From: a bacterium
Lineage (GTDB): Bacteria; Zhuqueibacterota; Zhuqueibacteria; Oceanimicrobiales; Oceanimicrobiaceae
DNA: 24,530 nucleotides
Assembly (NCBI GenBank): GCA_046757025.1
Contig: JBHHXN010000072.1
Coordinates: forward strand, 1 to 24,530
Direction of reading: 5' to 3'
Of the stretch, positions 6,159-21,074 are shown piece after piece. The position numbers were made by a program, and so were the translations under genes. The notes below the pieces were generated by a model. That model was not told the origin of the DNA. It saw only the letters and a program-made list of their open reading frames with translations, and searched no databases. How positions within the stretch are numbered: position 1 is the first letter of the stretch; each line of letters opens with the position of its first letter.

Positions 6159-7534
6159 TGTCAGCAGATGATTTAAAAAAGAAAAAGTCATCCGTAAAAG
6201 AAGCGCCGTTCATCGAGCCGGGACACACTTATGCTTCGATCACGGACAAGATCAGCTCCATCGTGCTCACCCGCAAAACACCGCTGGGTTGGTTTGTGGG
6301 ATTTGGTCTGGCGTTTTCCCTGCTGATGCTGCTGCTGGTGGCGGTGACTTATTTGTTCATCAAAGGCGTGGGTATTTGGGGCATCAACATTCCTGTGGGG
6401 TGGGGATTTGCCATCATCAACTTTGTCTGGTGGATCGGAATCGGTCATGCCGGCACGCTTATTTCCGCCATTCTTTTGCTTCTGCGGCAGGAGTGGCGTA
6501 CCTCCATCAACCGCTTTGCCGAAGCCATGACCCTGTTTGCCGTGGCTGCGGCCGGCATTTTTCCGCTCATCCACATGGGAAGACCGTGGCTGTTTTATTG
6601 GCTGATGCCCTACCCCAACACCATGTCGTTGTGGCCGCAATTCCGCAGTCCCCTGGTGTGGGATGTGTTCGCCGTGAGTACGTACGCCACGGTTTCGCTG
6701 CTGTTCTGGTATGTGGGGCTGGTGCCGGATTTTGCCACGTTGCGTGACCGCACAAAGAGTCGATTTTCCCAGATCGTTTACGGGGTGCTGGCCATGGGCT
6801 GGCGCGGCTCCGCCATCCACTGGTACCGCTATGAAACCGCTTATCTGCTTTTGGCTGGTCTAGCCACGCCGCTGGTGATTTCGGTACACACAGTGGTGAG
6901 TTTTGACTTTGCCATGTCCATCGTACCGGGTTGGCATGCTACAATCTTTCCGCCCTATTTTGTGGCGGGAGCGATTTATGCCGGCTTCGCCATGGTGCTG
7001 ACCCTTTCCATCCCGCTGCGAAAAATCTTTGGCCTGGAAGACTTTATCACCATGCGGCACCTGAAGAACATGGCCAAAGTGATGCTGGCCACCGGCCTCA
7101 TCGTGGGGTACGGATACATGATGGAAGCCTTCACCGCCTGGTACAGCGGCAGCGAATACGAAGAGTTCATGATCTTGAATCGCATGACCGGGCCGTATGC
7201 GGTATTTTTCTGGGCGTTGATTTTTTGCAACGTGGTGGTACCGCAATTTCTCTGGTTTGAAAGATTTCAAAACAACGTGGTCGCGCTTTTTGCCATCGCC
7301 ATGGTGGTGAACGTCGGTATGTGGCTGGAGCGGTTTATCATCGTCGTTACCAGTCTGCATCGAGATTTTTTACCGTCGTCATGGGATATGTATGCGGGTA
7401 CTTTTTGGGATTGGGCAACGTTTCTCGGCACCATCGGACTTTTCTTCGCGCTGATGTTTTTATTCCTGCGGTTGATTCCAGCCATTTCAATTTTTGAAAT
7501 GCGCACGCTGGTGACCGAAAAAGAAACAAAATAA
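6158..7534 (+). CDS. actC: Alternative complex III quinol-binding membrane subunit (NrfD/PsrC family)
   Basis: NFVWWIGIGHAGTLISAIL, WRTSINRFAEAMT, HMGRPW, FRSPLVWDVFAVSTY; polytopic. TGATG overlap with actB. Confidence 0.96.
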   Translation: MSADDLKKKKSSVKEAPFIEPGHTYASITDKISSIVLTRKTPLGWFVGFGLAFSLLMLLLVAVTYLFIKGVGIWGINIPVGWGFAIINFVWWIGIGHAGTLISAILLLLRQEWRTSINRFAEAMTLFAVAAAGIFPLIHMGRPWLFYWLMPYPNTMSLWPQFRSPLVWDVFAVSTYATVSLLFWYVGLVPDFATLRDRTKSRFSQIVYGVLAMGWRGSAIHWYRYETAYLLLAGLATPLVISVHTVVSFDFAMSIVPGWHATIFPPYFVAGAIYAGFAMVLTLSIPLRKIFGLEDFITMRHLKNMAKVMLATGLIVGYGYMMEAFTAWYSGSEYEEFMILNRMTGPYAVFFWALIFCNVVVPQFLWFERFQNNVVALFAIAMVVNVGMWLERFIIVVTSLHRDFLPSSWDMYAGTFWDWATFLGTIGLFFALMFLFLRLIPAISIFEMRTLVTEKETK

Positions 7535-7569
7535 CCAAAGCTCTAATTGAAAATTGAAATTAAAGTACC

Positions 7570-8311
7570 GCCACTGATATTCACGGATTGAACACGGATA
7601 AAATGAGTTTAGAATTTGAAGATATTACAGAAGCAATAATTGGGGCTGCCTTTGAAGTCTATAATATTCTCGGCTATGGTTTTTTAGAGAAAGTATATCA
7701 AAAAGCATTACAGGTTGAACTGTTACGCCGGGGACATTCTGCAGAACTAGAACATGCTATAAAAGTGAAGTTTAAAGGTGTCATAGTCGGTGATTATGAA
7801 GCGGATCTGTTTGTGGATGGCAAAGTATTAGTGGAAATTAAAGTTGCAAAAAAATATAATCCGAAAGATGAGCCACAGTTGCTGAATGAATTGAAAGCAA
7901 CAAAAATAAGAGTCGGGCTACTCATTAATTTCGGCAAGCAAAAACTAGAATTCAAACGATTCAGTTATGGGTAAAAATCCGTGTGTAATCTGTACTACAA
8001 GCCGACAACATGGTGTTTTTTAGCAAAGTTTTGGACGCTTCAGAACCTATTTTAGCCACGGATTTACACTGATAAAACACAGATTTTAAAATATAAAGTA
8101 TTTGAAATGAACTTTTATCTTCAAGAACCTGTTGTTGATTGATTGTGAAATTAATAAGTAAGCTCAAGTACAAAAGTTTAAATAGTGGAACGAATAATCA
8201 TTTTGTTTTCATATACTAACGGTACTTAAAGGTATTTATCCGTGTCAATCGGTGTTAATCGGTGGCTAAATTATTGGGTTGCGGCTCTACAGTGCTGAGT
8301 GCATCTGTGGC
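7570..8311. mobile_element. Nested cassette with ~10-mer tandem-repeat inverted arms (CACGGAT-type) between actC and actD
   Basis: Left arm gccactgatattcacggattgaacacggata (7570-7600). Right-arm pieces aatccgtgtgtaatctgt (7976-7993) and gtgcatctgtggc (8299-8311). Inner pair tttagccacggatttacactgataaaacacagattt (8051-8086) and tttatccgtgtcaatcggtgttaatcggtggctaaa (8235-8270). Mobility is inferred. Confidence 0.7.
7603..7974 (+). CDS. GxxExxY protein (PD-(D/E)XK nuclease-like)
   Basis: GFLEKVY matches GxxExxY; ADLFVDGKVLVEIK is a D...ExK motif; QLLNEL and GLLINFG are typical. Visibly AT-richer than the flanking act genes. ATG at 7603, alternative TTG at 7588. Confidence 0.93.
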   Translation: MSLEFEDITEAIIGAAFEVYNILGYGFLEKVYQKALQVELLRRGHSAELEHAIKVKFKGVIVGDYEADLFVDGKVLVEIKVAKKYNPKDEPQLLNELKATKIRVGLLINFGKQKLEFKRFSYG

Positions 8312-8370
8312 TGTAACACTAAAAAATGAGTTTTTTATCAACACTGATCTATTCAGATCCCAAAAATATC

Positions 8371-8910
8371 ATGAATAAAGAACGCGAAATCTACGGTTTA
8401 TTAGCGGAATTTGAAAATCCCGAACAACTAATCGAGGCGGCAACGAAGGCGCGTGAGCACGGCTTTCAAAAAATGGACGCCTATACACCGTTTCCTGTGG
8501 AAGAGCTGCCGCAAGCAGTGGGCTTCAAAAAACCGATGCTGCCGCTCATCGTGCTCATTGGCGGCATCGTCGGGGCGCTGCTGGGATTTGGCATGCAATA
8601 TTACGCTTCGGTCATTTCGTACCCACTGAATGTGGGCGGCCGACCGCTGAATAGCTGGCCGTCGTTCATTCCCATAACCTTCGAAATGACGATTTTGGTA
8701 GCGGCCTTTTCTGCGGTACTCGGCATGTTTGCTTTGAACAAGCTGCCCATGCCGTACCATCCGGTATTTAACGTACCGCGTTTCAAACTGGCGTCGCGCG
8801 ACCGCTTCTTTCTGTGTATCGAAAGCAAAGACCCGCAATTCTATTTAAAACAAACCGCGGAGTTTTTAAAATCGCTGCATGCGGTGGAGGTATTTGAGGT
8901 GGAGCCGTGA
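8371..8910 (+). CDS. actD: Alternative complex III ActD (DUF3341)
   Basis: YGLLAEF, MDAYTPFPV, YPLNVGGRPLNSWPSFIPITFE, ASRDRFFL; two TM helices. An in-frame upstream ATG exists at 8326. Confidence 0.93.
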   Translation: MNKEREIYGLLAEFENPEQLIEAATKAREHGFQKMDAYTPFPVEELPQAVGFKKPMLPLIVLIGGIVGALLGFGMQYYASVISYPLNVGGRPLNSWPSFIPITFEMTILVAAFSAVLGMFALNKLPMPYHPVFNVPRFKLASRDRFFLCIESKDPQFYLKQTAEFLKSLHAVEVFEVEP

Positions 8911-8918
8911 TTTTATTT

Positions 8919-8960
8919 GAGGATAGAAAATAGAGAATAGAGGTTTGAAAATAGAAAATA
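8919..8960 (+). repeat. Heptamer tandem array (GAAAATA-like x6), left arm
   Basis: gaggata gaaaata gagaata gaggttt gaaaata gaaaata. Confidence 0.85.
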
Positions 8961-8964
8961 AATT

Positions 8965-9218
8965 TAGCCTGAACTATTCAAAAAAATATTAACGCAGAGT
9001 TCGCCGAGGACGCTGAGTTACACAGAGAAAATCCTAAGGATTTAAGACCATGAGAGTCAGGCATTGACCTGGAAGTGTTGCATAAAGCAATCGCCTTTCT
9101 CTGCGTCCTTTGCGAACTCTGCGTTTAGAAACTTGTTTTAACGTCAGACAATTACTTAACATGTATATATTAATCGCTTTAAGGCTTTCTCAAACAGATT
9201 TTGGAATAACCCAGGTTA
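8965..9218. mobile_element. MITE-like element with imperfect ~21-bp terminal inverted repeats, containing an inner 9-mer-armed inverted repeat
   Basis: Ends: tagcctgaactattcaaaaaa (8965-8985) vs revcomp of 9198-9218, taacctgggttattccaaaat. Inner arms: aacgcagagttcgccgaggacgctgagttacacagagaaa (8991-9030) vs revcomp of 9096-9127, taaacgcagagttcgcaaaggacgcagagaaa (14-bp exact core). Confidence 0.65.
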
Positions 9219-9286
9219 GGAATTAGGATTTTAAAAATCGTTGTGATAAATAGCTTTTTATCAGATAAATCCTCGATACGCGGGAT

Positions 9287-9346
9287 TTCATGGTTCGACT
9301 CCGCTCACCATGAAGAAGTTAGCTTCACCTGGAGCAGTCGAGGGGT
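9287..9346. repeat. REP-like TTCGAC...GCTC hairpin plus degenerate inverted partner
   Basis: ttcatggt-tcgactccgctc-accatgaa (8-bp stem, 9287-9314). gagcagtcga (9332-9341) is the revcomp of tcgactccgctc with a 2-nt deletion. Confidence 0.6.
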
Positions 9347-9383
9347 GCCGACTGATTTATCTCGACTTTCCAGCCAGACTTCC

Positions 9384-9515
9384 GGGCGTTTGTATAAAGC
9401 CGCGTTCATGAACAAAATCAACGAAGCCCTGGGAGAAGCCTGGCAGCACATCGGCGCCATGCTGAACAAAATGATCCAACGAGCAGATAGTTTTTGTCAA
9501 ACTAATATTAAATAG
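9384..9515 (+). pseudogene. Four-helix-bundle protein (TIGR02436 / 23S rRNA IVP-like) C-terminal remnant with internal deletion
   Basis: GRLYKAAFMNKINEALGEA|WQHIGAMLNKMIQRADSFC follows the family pattern RRY.AAF..KL..A.GEA...I..ML.KMI. The N-terminus and the ETQxWL segment are missing. Confidence 0.7.
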
Positions 9516-9525
9516 GGAAAATTAA

Positions 9526-10194
9526 GTGGCATTCATAAAAATCAATTTTCGATTTTCCATCTTCCATCATCTATCTTCTATCTTCAATCTTTTTATTTAT
9601 TTGAAAAATATTCGAAGATGGACAAACTATAAAATTATTTTATTAGCAGTCACAATAATCAACACAACCGCCTGCCGGCAGGACATGCACGATCAGCCCA
9701 AATTACAGCCGTTGGAAGCCAGTGATTTTTTCAAGGACGGCCGGGCTTCCCGGTCGCTGATCGAGGGCACCGTGGCACGCGGCCATTTAAACAATGACCC
9801 ACATTTATATCAGGGGAGAGTTGACGGAGAGCTGGTCTGGACGTTTCCTTTCCCGATCACCAAAGAAGTTTTGCGGCGCGGCGAAGAACGCTACAACATT
9901 TTCTGTTCGCCCTGCCACGATCAGCTTGGATATGGACGGGGAATGATTGTCCAGCGCGGTTTTCGACAGCCGCCCTCGTTTCACATCGACCGGCTGCGCA
10001 ATGCGCCAGCCGGACATCTTTTTGACGTCATCTCCAACGGTCTGGGCGCCATGTTTGATTATGCTGAACGCATTCCGGTCCACGACCGCTGGGCCATCGT
10101 GGCGTATATTCGCGTGCTGCAGTTGAGTCAAAACGCCACCATGGACGATGTGCCAGAAGAATTGCGACAACCGTTAATGGAAAACAATAAATGA
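9526..10194 (+). CDS. actE: Alternative complex III monoheme cytochrome c lipoprotein
   Basis: AC-RQDMHDQPK lipoprotein N-terminus, GTVARG, a single CSPCH, DRWAIVAYIRVLQLSQ. Start is uncertain: GTG 9526 (agggaa upstream) or TTG 9601. Confidence 0.92.
   Translation: MAFIKINFRFSIFHHLSSIFNLFIYLKNIRRWTNYKIILLAVTIINTTACRQDMHDQPKLQPLEASDFFKDGRASRSLIEGTVARGHLNNDPHLYQGRVDGELVWTFPFPITKEVLRRGEERYNIFCSPCHDQLGYGRGMIVQRGFRQPPSFHIDRLRNAPAGHLFDVISNGLGAMFDYAERIPVHDRWAIVAYIRVLQLSQNATMDDVPEELRQPLMENNK
9544..9592 (-). repeat. Heptamer tandem array (x7), right arm, inverted relative to 8919-8960
   Basis: aattttc gattttc catcttc catcatc tatcttc tatcttc aatcttt; revcomp units are gaaaatt, gaaaatc, gaagata and similar. 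Confidence 0.85.
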
Positions 10195-16645: not shown

Positions 16646-17008
16646 TCAATCATCATTTTGTGGATGGAATCCAATTCGTCTTTTTGTTTTGGCATCCGGC
16701 GCCATGAGCTGTCGAATGGCTTCAAACACAACCCGGAACTGTTTATCGTATTTTTTCTCCAGCTCATCGAGCCTGCGAGCCAAATCTTTATGAGAGGTGA
16801 GCATTTGACGCAGGCGCACAAAAGCTCGCATGATTTGGCAGTTGACCCGAATAGCTTGTTCACTCCTCAACACACTCGAAAGCATGGCCACACCCTGCTC
16901 GGTAAACACCCAGGGCAGCTTGCGCCGGCCGCCTCTACCAGTTTTTGATATCACAGTTTGTGATATCAAAGCCTCGAACTTTTTCAGGGGGAGCTAAAAC
17001 ATGAACTT
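16646..17008 (-). pseudogene. ORF6N (KilA-N-like) domain protein, 5'-truncated with a nonsense codon
   Basis: In-frame reading [66 protein letters not shown]...KRRIGF. TAG sits where the family has FMFQL, and the N-terminus is absent. Confidence 0.85.
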
Positions 17009-20843: not shown

Positions 20844-20993
20844 GAAAGAACCTCGCTAATTTATTTTTTAAACGAAAATTGTTTAATCGGAATCATTCAG
20901 ATCCCCAAAAACAAAAAGCACAAATTCTGGTTTCATTAATTTATATGAGAACGGACAATTTTTTGACTCATTCACTGCAAAAACTTTAAATTC

Positions 20994-21028
20994 ATTTTGT
21001 CCTTTGTCCTTTGTCCCTTGTCCTTTGT
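20994..21028. repeat. Heptamer tandem array (CCTTTGT x4-5)
   Basis: attttgt cctttgt cctttgt cccttgt cctttgt. Confidence 0.85.
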
Positions 21029-21074
21029 ACTGATGGGTGCTGCGATGAAAATAGATTTCCCTTTCAGGCATAAT

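What the first reader, a model, noticed from the sequence alone, without database searches (positions are those of the whole stretch)
8919..9592. Russian-doll nesting of four element types between actD and actE
Seen, from outside in: heptamer arms (8919-8960 / 9544-9592), a ~21-bp imperfect terminal inverted repeat element (8965-9218), and 9-mer arms (8991-9030 / 9096-9127). A TTCGAC REP-like pair (9287-9346) and the four-helix-bundle remnant also lie inside the outer arms. The inner element begins 4 nt after the outer arm. Inference: these elements preferentially insert into or next to each other, using earlier insertions as safe havens inside a core respiratory operon.
Basis: partly seen in the sequence, partly recalled or inferred. 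Interest (0 to 1): 0.7.

Follow-up and report, generated by a model that had tools for sequence, protein, structure and literature searches.

The report
Two mini-transposons inside a dying cassette
Between two respiratory genes lies an old hairpin-bracketed gene cassette, still intact at the same spot in related bacteria, whose gene has decayed here and which took in one hairpin-carrying mini-transposon and likely a second, side by side, so the 'Russian doll' is real but shallower than proposed and shows no sign of the elements seeking each other out.

Summary
All the layers are real, but they are not four independent insertions. The heptamer arms plus four-helix-bundle (FHB) remnant are an old resident: 10 of 10 close FHB relatives sit beside actD/actE, 7 intact and under purifying selection. 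The '21-bp TIR element' is a 248-bp IS1380-type MITE (8968-9215, TTAG duplication). It arrived with its 9-mer arms inside: whole copies, 65-81% identical, occur at unrelated sites in relatives. The REP pair lies beside it, not inside, probably carried by an eroded IS1182-type MITE. Depth is three. In this genome independent insertions do not cluster beyond chance (8 of 23 versus 23%, p=0.15), so preferential targeting is unsupported. What holds is that IS-end MITEs often carry other classes' hairpins (18 of 33 families versus 7 of 60 controls). In 8 of 9 relatives the right arm is probably translated within ActE's signal peptide, which could explain the cassette's persistence. The scan noted FHB cassettes and hairpin-bearing IS1380 MITEs before on other DNA. 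Moderate-low interest.

The parts
8371..8910 (+). actD (alternative complex III subunit D); open frame from 8326. The stop TGA 8908-8910 overlaps a GTG (8907-8909 region, 'CCGTGA') that starts actE in one empty-site relative (L011)
   Evidence: Pfam PF11821 E 9.7e-68
8917..8965 (+). Left heptamer arm of the four-helix-bundle cassette (7-nt purine-rich units)
   Evidence: similar arm at the same site in L004, L014, L015
8964..8967 (+). Left copy of the 4-bp target-site duplication TTAG
8968..9215 (.). 248-bp IS1380-type MITE with imperfect terminal inverted repeats (about 8968-8983 and 9200-9215); one member of a family found at unrelated sites in relatives
8991..9030 (+). Left 9-mer arm (CGCAGAG-type units), cargo of the MITE; the same arm family flanks GxxExxY genes elsewhere
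9096..9127 (+). Right 9-mer arm, complementary to 8991-9017
9216..9219 (+). Right copy of the TTAG duplication
9287..9315 (+). TTCGAC-type REP-like hairpin, unit 1; identical over 29-30 nt to three other genomic copies
9323..9347 (-). Degenerate inverted partner of the REP-like doublet
9364..9381 (-). Probable surviving right end of a second, IS1182-type MITE that carried the doublet; left end not recognisable (inferred)
9387..9515 (+). 3' remnant of the four-helix-bundle gene (TIGR02436 family in intact relatives), with an 81-nt in-frame deletion at 9440/9441; 5' ~59 codons absent. It is the end of an open frame 9243-9515
9539..9594 (+). Right heptamer arm; lies in frame inside the open 5' extension of actE
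9526..10194 (+). actE (monoheme cytochrome c lipoprotein); candidate starts GTG 9526 (before the arm) and TTG 9601 (after it)

Best explanation
The spacer is an old heptamer-armed four-helix-bundle cassette, resident at the actD|actE junction across two bacterial families, whose gene has decayed in this lineage and whose loop received a 248-bp IS1380-type mini-transposon already carrying its 9-mer hairpin and, likely, a second IS1182-type mini-transposon carrying the REP doublet. Steps: (1) Shown: relatives hold the intact cassette at this exact site and its protein divergence tracks ActE. (2) Shown: here the gene has lost its 5' half and 27 internal codons. (3) Shown: the MITE sits in a TTAG duplication and is one of a family whose copies all have the same 9-mer cargo. 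Inferred: it was moved in trans by an IS1380 transposase; full-length IS1380 elements with the same ends occur in relatives, and only a fragment was found in this assembly. (4) Inferred: the REP doublet came inside an IS1182-type MITE whose left end has eroded, and this insertion or an adjacent deletion removed the gene's 5' half; the order of steps 2-4 is not known. (5) Inferred: insertions survive here because the dead loop is AT-rich (38% GC against 51% in actD) and dispensable, while the right arm is kept because actE's start and signal-peptide N-terminus probably run through it. The haven is passive (selection spares it), not targeted.
For: FHB relatives at 61-100% identity to the L014 protein: 10 of 10 adjacent to actD and/or actE; 0 of 20 more distant ones (41-50%) near act genes; an eleventh, frameshifted, in L015; no further member at E<=1e-38 among 167 genomes of the phylum. 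Seven intact copies: dN 0.03-0.31, dS above 1 or saturated; FHB identity tracks ActE identity (Spearman 0.83 over 21 non-independent pairs). MITE family: near-full-length matches in G013 (6), G016, G005, G011, G014, G009; 7 complete homologues align end to end with unrelated flanks; duplications exact in 3 of 7, 3/4 in 3 of 7, 2/4 in 1. Same ends on full-length elements L155, L164, L036, L058, L075, L079, with TTAG/TTAG at L155, L036, L075, L079; the L155 protein is NF033539, 401 bits against cut-off 180. REP doublets in relatives: 13 of 19 enclosed by terminal inverted repeats at p<=0.01, similar to ends of IS1182 elements L268, L270, L277. No genome-wide clustering. Right arm in actE's open frame with no start codon more than 15 codons before the lipobox cysteine downstream of it in 8 of 9 FHB-bearing relatives. 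GC figures.
Against: This is the only one of 3549 spacers with all four classes (expected 0.0125, p=0.0125), although it was picked for that and two of the classes arrived together. The insertion-site test has little power (n=23; 35% against 23%), and the repeat catalogue is incomplete. Some related copies do sit inside other elements: L185 inside another 9-mer element, L266 a wrapped doublet inside 9-mer arms. The window's own doublet has no significant enclosing pair (p=0.084), so step 4 rests on one end. Pyrimidine-rich arms rarely contain stops, so an open frame through the right arm is expected by composition; start usage is untested, and in the window a start after the arm (TTG 9601) is available. 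The FHB tree has no starred branch, so site-specific horizontal spread is not excluded.
Confidence: 0.8

Rival explanations
1. Active mutual targeting: each element class recognises the hairpins or ends of the others and inserts into or beside them, as some IS110-family elements target REPs.
For: The MITE sits at the inner end of the left heptamer arm, whose sequence supplies a TTAG. Nesting in other orders exists in relatives (L146, L185, L266). IS targeting of REPs is in print (PMC1525189, abstract). MITE interiors are hairpin-rich. TIR and 9-mer co-occur in 6 spacers against 2.2 expected (p=0.018).
Against: MITE flanks hold another repeat in 5 of 23 (40 nt), 8 of 23 (80 nt) and 8 of 23 (150 nt) against 17.5%, 23.4% and 30.2% of control sites, p=0.38, 0.15, 0.39. 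REPs near other classes 2 of 136 against 3.1%; heptamer arrays 1 of 118 against 3.7%; 9-mers 1 of 51 against 3.8%. The TIR/9-mer excess is explained by composite families copied as units.
Confidence: 0.1
2. The whole nest is a selected regulatory RNA structure: the long stem (for example an RNase III site, as in 23S rRNA intervening sequences) and the inner hairpins tune actE expression, and the open frame 9243-9515 keeps translation coupled to actE.
For: The spacer folds at z -3.85 with the outer arms closing it. The intact FHB gene is conserved in relatives. The frame 9243-9515 is open through the REP doublet and the deletion is in frame; its stop lies 10 nt before GTG 9526. IVS excision by RNase III and heptamer repeats before the S23p ORF are described for a 23S IVS (PMC4990558, passages).
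Against: No covariation in the 9-mer stem over 8 copies (254 of 500 shuffles reach the score). An open 48-codon stretch has probability 0.09 by composition. Seven relatives have an empty site and five other cargo, and the gene is broken in G016, G005, G018 and here. The window's MITE copy departs from the family majority at several positions. No Rfam match at E<=1. This rival can be true for the outer stem alone.
Confidence: 0.07
3. The layers are not transposon insertions but stem extensions made in place by inverted duplication or template switching around a hairpin.
For: All layers are inverted repeats, and many mismatches are wobble-compatible.
Against: Direct, non-palindromic 4-bp repeats flank the element here and many relatives in the genome (15 of 29 candidate pairs exact, for example GTAT, TACA, TAAT). 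The same 248-bp element occurs at unrelated sites and shares ends with full-length IS1380.
Confidence: 0.03

Closest known systems
IS1380-family insertion sequences (Pfam PF13701, NCBIfam NF033539) and their non-autonomous MITE derivatives
   Same: Ends match those of full-length IS1380 elements in the same bacterial family and in other phyla; 4-bp duplication; no transposase; dispersed copies. IS1380 members are described as capturing adjacent DNA by end misrecognition (PMC9330008, passages).
   Different: The interior shows no similarity to 6 full-length IS1380 interiors (0 hits at E<1e-3); it holds a gene-less 9-mer hairpin of the kind that flanks GxxExxY genes. Mobility was not tested.
23S rRNA intervening sequences with an S23p/four-helix-bundle ORF (PF05635, TIGR02436)
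   Same: Same protein family (TIGR02436, 91 bits against cut-off 24, for the intact L014 protein), enclosed by a terminal stem, with heptamer repeats near the start codon, as described for one IVS (PMC4990558, passages).
   Different: Lies in an mRNA between actD and actE, not in rRNA (no Rfam match); fixed to one site across two families; right arm probably part of the next gene; RNase III excision not tested.
REP dimers/BIMEs, including REP dimers set inside longer palindromes (Di Nocera et al. 2013, PMC3733652)
   Same: Short hairpin in an inverted dimer, over 150 intergenic units in the genome. That paper notes REP dimers inside 40-50 bp palindromes whose empty form was not found in two species (passage).
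   Different: The TTCGAC motif is not in that paper's main text or the 4 supplements held as text (figures are not held). Here the enclosing palindromes resemble IS1182 ends, a link that the passages read do not make.
IS elements that target REPs (ISPpu9, ISPsy8, ISPa11 and others; PMC1525189) and mosaic non-autonomous elements (MICs, TIMEs; PMC4133298)
   Same: Mobile elements found inside or beside other repeats; IS ends carrying foreign cargo (abstract; passages).
   Different: No site-specific targeting of repeats is seen for these MITEs in this genome; cargo is non-coding hairpins.
Bacterial intergenic heptamer repeats (TAACTGA repeats, PMC4679880)
   Same: Tandem 7-nt units just upstream of start codons (passages).
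   Different: Different unit; here two arrays form the inverted arms of a gene cassette.

Membership tests
IS1380-type MITE (8968-9215) | Terminal inverted repeats like those of an autonomous IS1380 | tested here: met
   Same end motif on L155, L164 (same family) and L036, L058, L075, L079; L155 protein NF033539 above cut-off. The pair alone is not significant against shuffles.
IS1380-type MITE (8968-9215) | Target-site duplication | tested here: met
   TTAG on both sides; exact in 3 of 7 and 3/4 in 3 of 7 complete homologues
IS1380-type MITE (8968-9215) | Short, no transposase, multiple dispersed copies | tested here: met
   248 bp; single copy of this subfamily in G000 but at least 6 in G013 and others in five more genomes
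IS1380-type MITE (8968-9215) | Mobilised in trans by the cognate transposase | not testable with these tools
   G000 holds one IS1380 fragment above cut-off, with no matching end in its locus
IS1182-type MITE (around 9287-9381) | Paired terminal inverted repeats with a duplication | tested here: not met
   Only the right end is recognisable; enclosing pair p=0.084. 13 of 19 related doublets do have pairs.
IS1182-type MITE (around 9287-9381) | End resembles an autonomous IS1182 end | tested here: inconclusive
   Resembles, by eye and loose pattern, the ends of L268, L270, L277, which are NF033551 above cut-off; no statistical test
Four-helix-bundle protein family (TIGR02436/PF05635) | Sequence homology to the family | tested here: met
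   Intact orthologue scores 91 bits; remnant matches it at E 4e-17. The remnant alone scores nothing in Pfam or NCBIfam.
23S rRNA intervening sequence | Located in a 23S rRNA gene | tested here: not met
   Between actD and actE; no Rfam match
23S rRNA intervening sequence | Excised from RNA by RNase III | not testable with these tools
   Needs RNA data or an in vitro assay
REP (GTAG/CGTC families) | Abundant extragenic short palindrome, often in inverted dimers | tested here: met
   157 of 160 motif matches intergenic, 1 in shuffled DNA; dimers at C224, C231
REP (GTAG/CGTC families) | GTAG or CGTC tag, or an associated RAYT | tested here: inconclusive
   No such tag on this unit by sequence; motif not found in PMC3733652 text or held supplements; Y1 transposase hits exist in the genome but their flanks were not examined
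REP-targeting IS (site-specific insertion into repeats) | Insertion sites enriched in or beside repeats | tested here: not met
   8 of 23 against 23%, p=0.15; low power

The most novel reading that the evidence does not exclude
Insertion-sequence ends (IS1380, IS1182) act as general taxis for hairpin repeats that have no transposase of their own: the same REP doublet and the same 9-mer hairpin have been wrapped again and again by different IS ends and then spread as units, which implies that hairpins promote the birth or movement of MITEs. Separately, a four-helix-bundle cassette has been domesticated in the alternative complex III operon, with its hairpin arm translated as the N-terminus of ActE's signal peptide.
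Probability: 0.3. Interest if true: 0.6.

Novelty: new variant of a known kind. Interest (0 to 1): 0.33.

Why it matters
The locus itself is a well-preserved record of ordinary processes: gene decay and MITE insertion. Two side results are worth more. First, MITEs with IS1380 ends carry hairpins far more often than intergenic DNA (18 of 33 families against 7 of 60), and one REP doublet is found inside several different IS-like end pairs. If hairpins favour wrapping, this offers a route of spread for palindromic repeats described as lacking a dedicated transposase (PMC3733652). Second, a four-helix-bundle gene of unknown function is tied to one site in a core respiratory operon over long evolutionary time, under purifying selection, with intact, broken and empty states in relatives. 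That is a natural experiment for finding out what this family and its heptamer arms do.

Tried and rejected
Other four-helix-bundle genes of the same genome (9 found) did not detect the remnant (best E 0.12); only orthologues from relatives did. A suspected FHB remnant in L012 was not confirmed (no hit at E<0.05). The IS1380 fragment in G000 (C303) has no matching end nearby. Covariation in the 9-mer stem: none. Rfam: 0 matches at E<=1 over 7400-9800. Promoter scan: 7 sigma-70-like sites against 1.9 expected and 3 terminator-like sites against 1.2; not used, as AT-rich consensus matches are not evidence of function. Sequencing runs: no RNA holder listed. Four DNA runs of one study showed no joint that skips the MITE or the cassette; contigs drop rare variants and one run may be the source, so this is not evidence of absence. 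A length-binned permutation was chosen over a uniform null because long spacers hold more of everything; it is conservative, since insertions lengthen spacers. The 9-mer pattern used is noisy (58 of 178 matches intergenic), and the heptamer scan missed the window's left arm. In one search, 6 of 29 candidate pairs were dropped before the insertion-site test (5 with under 3/4 duplication, 1 with a doubtful right end), and duplication was itself an admission criterion for the loosest partners, so the duplication counts are inflated somewhat. Literature: no paper held both 'four helix bundle' and 'GxxExxY' or all of MITE, IS1182, IS1380 and palindrom; 'GxxExxY' alone gave 3 papers, 2 listed, seen as listings only; some searches gave listings with nothing on this arrangement. 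Subscription journals and bioRxiv supplements were not searchable, so absence from print is not established. Ribosomal bypassing of the hairpin was considered and not pursued: nothing here tests it.

Full report
Setting. The window is contig C72 of a 5.96-Mb assembly in 374 contigs, held by hydrothermal-vent metagenome runs of one study. It carries an alternative complex III and cytochrome oxidase operon (Pfam). The finding covers the spacer between actD (ends 8910) and actE.

Observation. All parts are present. The heptamer arms (8917-8965 with 9539-9587, 78% complementary) and the 9-mer arms (8991-9017 with 9099-9125, 89%) were found by the repeat finder and beat all 2000 shuffles each. The TIR pair and the REP pair do not beat shuffles alone (389 and 166 of 2000) and rest on family evidence. 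The TIR element runs 8968-9215 and is flanked by TTAG on both sides. The REP units are 9287-9315 and 9323-9347. The region folds as RNA at z -3.85 over 20 shuffles, closed by the outer arms.

Outer layer: an old resident. Of 61 genomes searched with ActD, 36 matched. Among the closer loci with both neighbours, the actD-actE gap is empty in L005, L008, L010, L011, L013, L020 and L021, holds other cargo in L002, L009, L012, L016 and L019, and holds a four-helix-bundle (FHB) gene between heptamer arms in L004, L014 and L018 (classed by reading the printed gaps). The L014 protein is TIGR02436 and matches 9387-9512 at E 4e-17, with 27 codons deleted in frame and the first ~59 missing. Searching 125 genomes of the class with it gave 32 matches in 25 genomes, 30 of them fetched as loci. 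All 10 at 61-100% identity adjoin actD and/or actE; none of the 20 at 41-50% is near an act gene. L015 adds an eleventh, frameshifted copy. Seven are intact, three are broken (G016, G005, G018) and one is cut by a contig end. For the seven intact genes dN is 0.03-0.31 and dS is above 1 or saturated; FHB identity tracks ActE identity (Spearman 0.83, 21 non-independent pairs), and both trees separate the two families, though the FHB tree has no starred branch. The remnant is no more diverged at non-synonymous sites (pN 0.13-0.21) than intact copies are from each other, so the loss is recent on this scale. The cassette is therefore best read as co-inherited with the operon and often lost; site-specific horizontal spread is not excluded.

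Why it may persist. In 8 of 9 FHB-bearing relatives with actE, the right arm lies in the open frame before the lipobox cysteine, and start codons after the arm lie only 6-15 codons before it, whereas empty-site relatives have starts 18-29 codons before. The arm is thus probably translated as part of the signal-peptide N-terminus. In the window both GTG 9526 (before the arm) and TTG 9601 (after) are available. This is inference: pyrimidine-rich arms seldom contain stops, and no expression data were found.

Layers two and three: one element. The TIR motif is an IS1380 end. Full-length elements with it occur in the same family (L155 with TTAG on both sides, L164) and in other phyla (L036, L075, L079 with TTAG on both sides; L058); the L155 protein is NF033539. 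The whole 248 bp, 9-mer arms included, has near-full-length homologues in G013 (6 listed), G016, G005, G011, G014 and G009 (only 6 candidates per genome were scored, so counts are lower bounds). Seven complete ones, 65-81% identical, align end to end with unrelated flanks and have duplications exact in 3, 3/4 in 3 and 2/4 in 1. The arms were thus cargo before arrival. The same CGCAGAG arm family flanks GxxExxY genes (C30 in this genome, L245) and stands alone at many sites; 2 of 33 listed arms have an IS1380 end within 45 nt. The arms are more conserved than the loop (0.92 and 0.88 against 0.75) but show no covariation.

Layer four: beside, not inside. The doublet layout recurs in this genome and in 8 of 20 family genomes. 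Of 19 related doublets, 13 are enclosed by terminal inverted repeats of several variants that resemble the ends of IS1182 elements L268, L270 and L277. The window keeps a likely right end at 9364-9381, 5 nt before the FHB remnant, and no recognisable left end (p=0.084). I infer an eroded second MITE. The topology is cassette containing [MITE containing 9-mer hairpin] next to [eroded MITE containing REP doublet] next to the FHB remnant: depth three, about two insertions.

Is there preferential insertion? With a simple gene finder (4274 genes), 3549 spacers held heptamer arrays in 106, 9-mers in 49, IS1380 ends in 65 and REPs in 131. Two or more classes occur in 26 against 21.4 under length-binned permutation (p=0.15); of six class pairs only TIR with 9-mer is enriched (6 against 2.2, p=0.018, uncorrected). 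This spacer is the only one with all four (p=0.0125, chosen after the fact). For 23 paired MITEs, another repeat lies within 80 nt in 8, against 23.4% of 122,743 control sites (p=0.15; 40 nt p=0.38; 150 nt p=0.39). REPs, heptamer arrays and 9-mers are not enriched near each other (2 of 136, 1 of 118, 1 of 51 against 3-4%). Power is limited, but general targeting is not supported.

What does hold. IS1380-type MITEs collected by their ends alone (23 from this genome, 31 from the cross-phylum scan) fall into 33 families; 18 have interiors folding at z<=-3 against 7 of 60 random intergenic stretches (Fisher p=1.7e-5) and 2 of 12 subterminal windows of full IS1380; none resembles the interiors of 6 full-length elements. 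By eye the cargo is often another repeat class. Further IS-like ends in this genome also face REP-like hairpins (47 ends listed). Nesting is therefore a property of how MITE families are founded, not of where they land. That MITEs fold into long stem-loops is in print as a general feature (PMC3184786, passages), and REP dimers inside longer palindromes were noted in PMC3733652 (passages), which also says that CGTC REPs seem to lack a dedicated transposase.

Comparison and verdict. Each part belongs to, or works like, a known kind: IS1380 MITE (membership met apart from mobility), REP dimer, IVS-type FHB gene with heptamers (PMC4990558, passages), heptamer repeats (PMC4679880, passages). Earlier notes of this scan describe FHB-heptamer cassettes, nested hairpin cassettes and hairpin-bearing IS1380 MITEs on other DNA; I found no note on this sequence or on an FHB cassette at actD|actE. 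These notes are unchecked leads, not support. New variant of known kinds; interest 0.33.

Noticed in passing
window 7568-7993 and 8053-8268: The actC|actD spacer holds an intact GxxExxY gene (7588-7974; TIGR04256, PF13366) between 9-mer arms, followed by a second, gene-less 9-mer cassette. Relative L010 has a different GxxExxY gene (33% identity, other arms) at the same junction, which points to independent insertion.
   Followed up: partly
window 9003-9163 in run X4: The only contig over this stretch in X4 differs by 8 substitutions and 2 gaps in 161 nt, against 1 in 771 and 1 in 1012 in the flanking contigs. At the six positions printed, X4 has the family-majority base at five and a tie at one. 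Either a more ancestral copy from another locus or organism, or conversion at this site; unresolved.
   Followed up: partly
window 9243-9515: A 90-codon frame stays open from a GTG through the REP doublet into the FHB remnant and stops 10 nt before GTG 9526; chance of the first 48 codons being open is 0.09.
   Followed up: partly
L016 (actD|actE), L017 and L018 (actC|actD): Pairs of small genes fill these junctions in other relatives; they look like toxin-antitoxin pairs (label recalled, not tested). The operon's junctions are repeatedly used by small cargo.
   Followed up: no
G000 contigs C1, C6, C17, C40, C50 and others: A large family of ends of the type CTGTGTGAAAAGTC, and a smaller CTGTCCCAAAAGTC type (47 ends listed in all), face inward onto GTCATTCC-type or TTCGAC-type hairpins; the first resembles the ends of IS1182 element L270.
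   Followed up: partly
L179, L230 and L231 (G013): Chimeric versions of the 248-bp MITE: its left ~240 bp is joined to a different right module; L179 and L231 end in an IS1380-type end with the site duplication kept, which suggests module swapping or capture.
   Followed up: partly
G000 C166:1996-2878; C14:10275; C92:19901: A tandem duplication of an identical FHB cassette (C166), and FHB genes interrupted by a short perfect hairpin of another family (C14, C92).
   Followed up: no
G000 C95:17057-17573: A GIY-YIG hit directly adjoins a PD-(D/E)XK_3 hit with an internal stop.
   Followed up: no
window 16646-16969 (-) and 20991-21033: A truncated ORF6N-domain gene (PF10543 E 1.9e-5, below cut-off) after the oxidase operon, and a lone heptamer array.
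   Followed up: no
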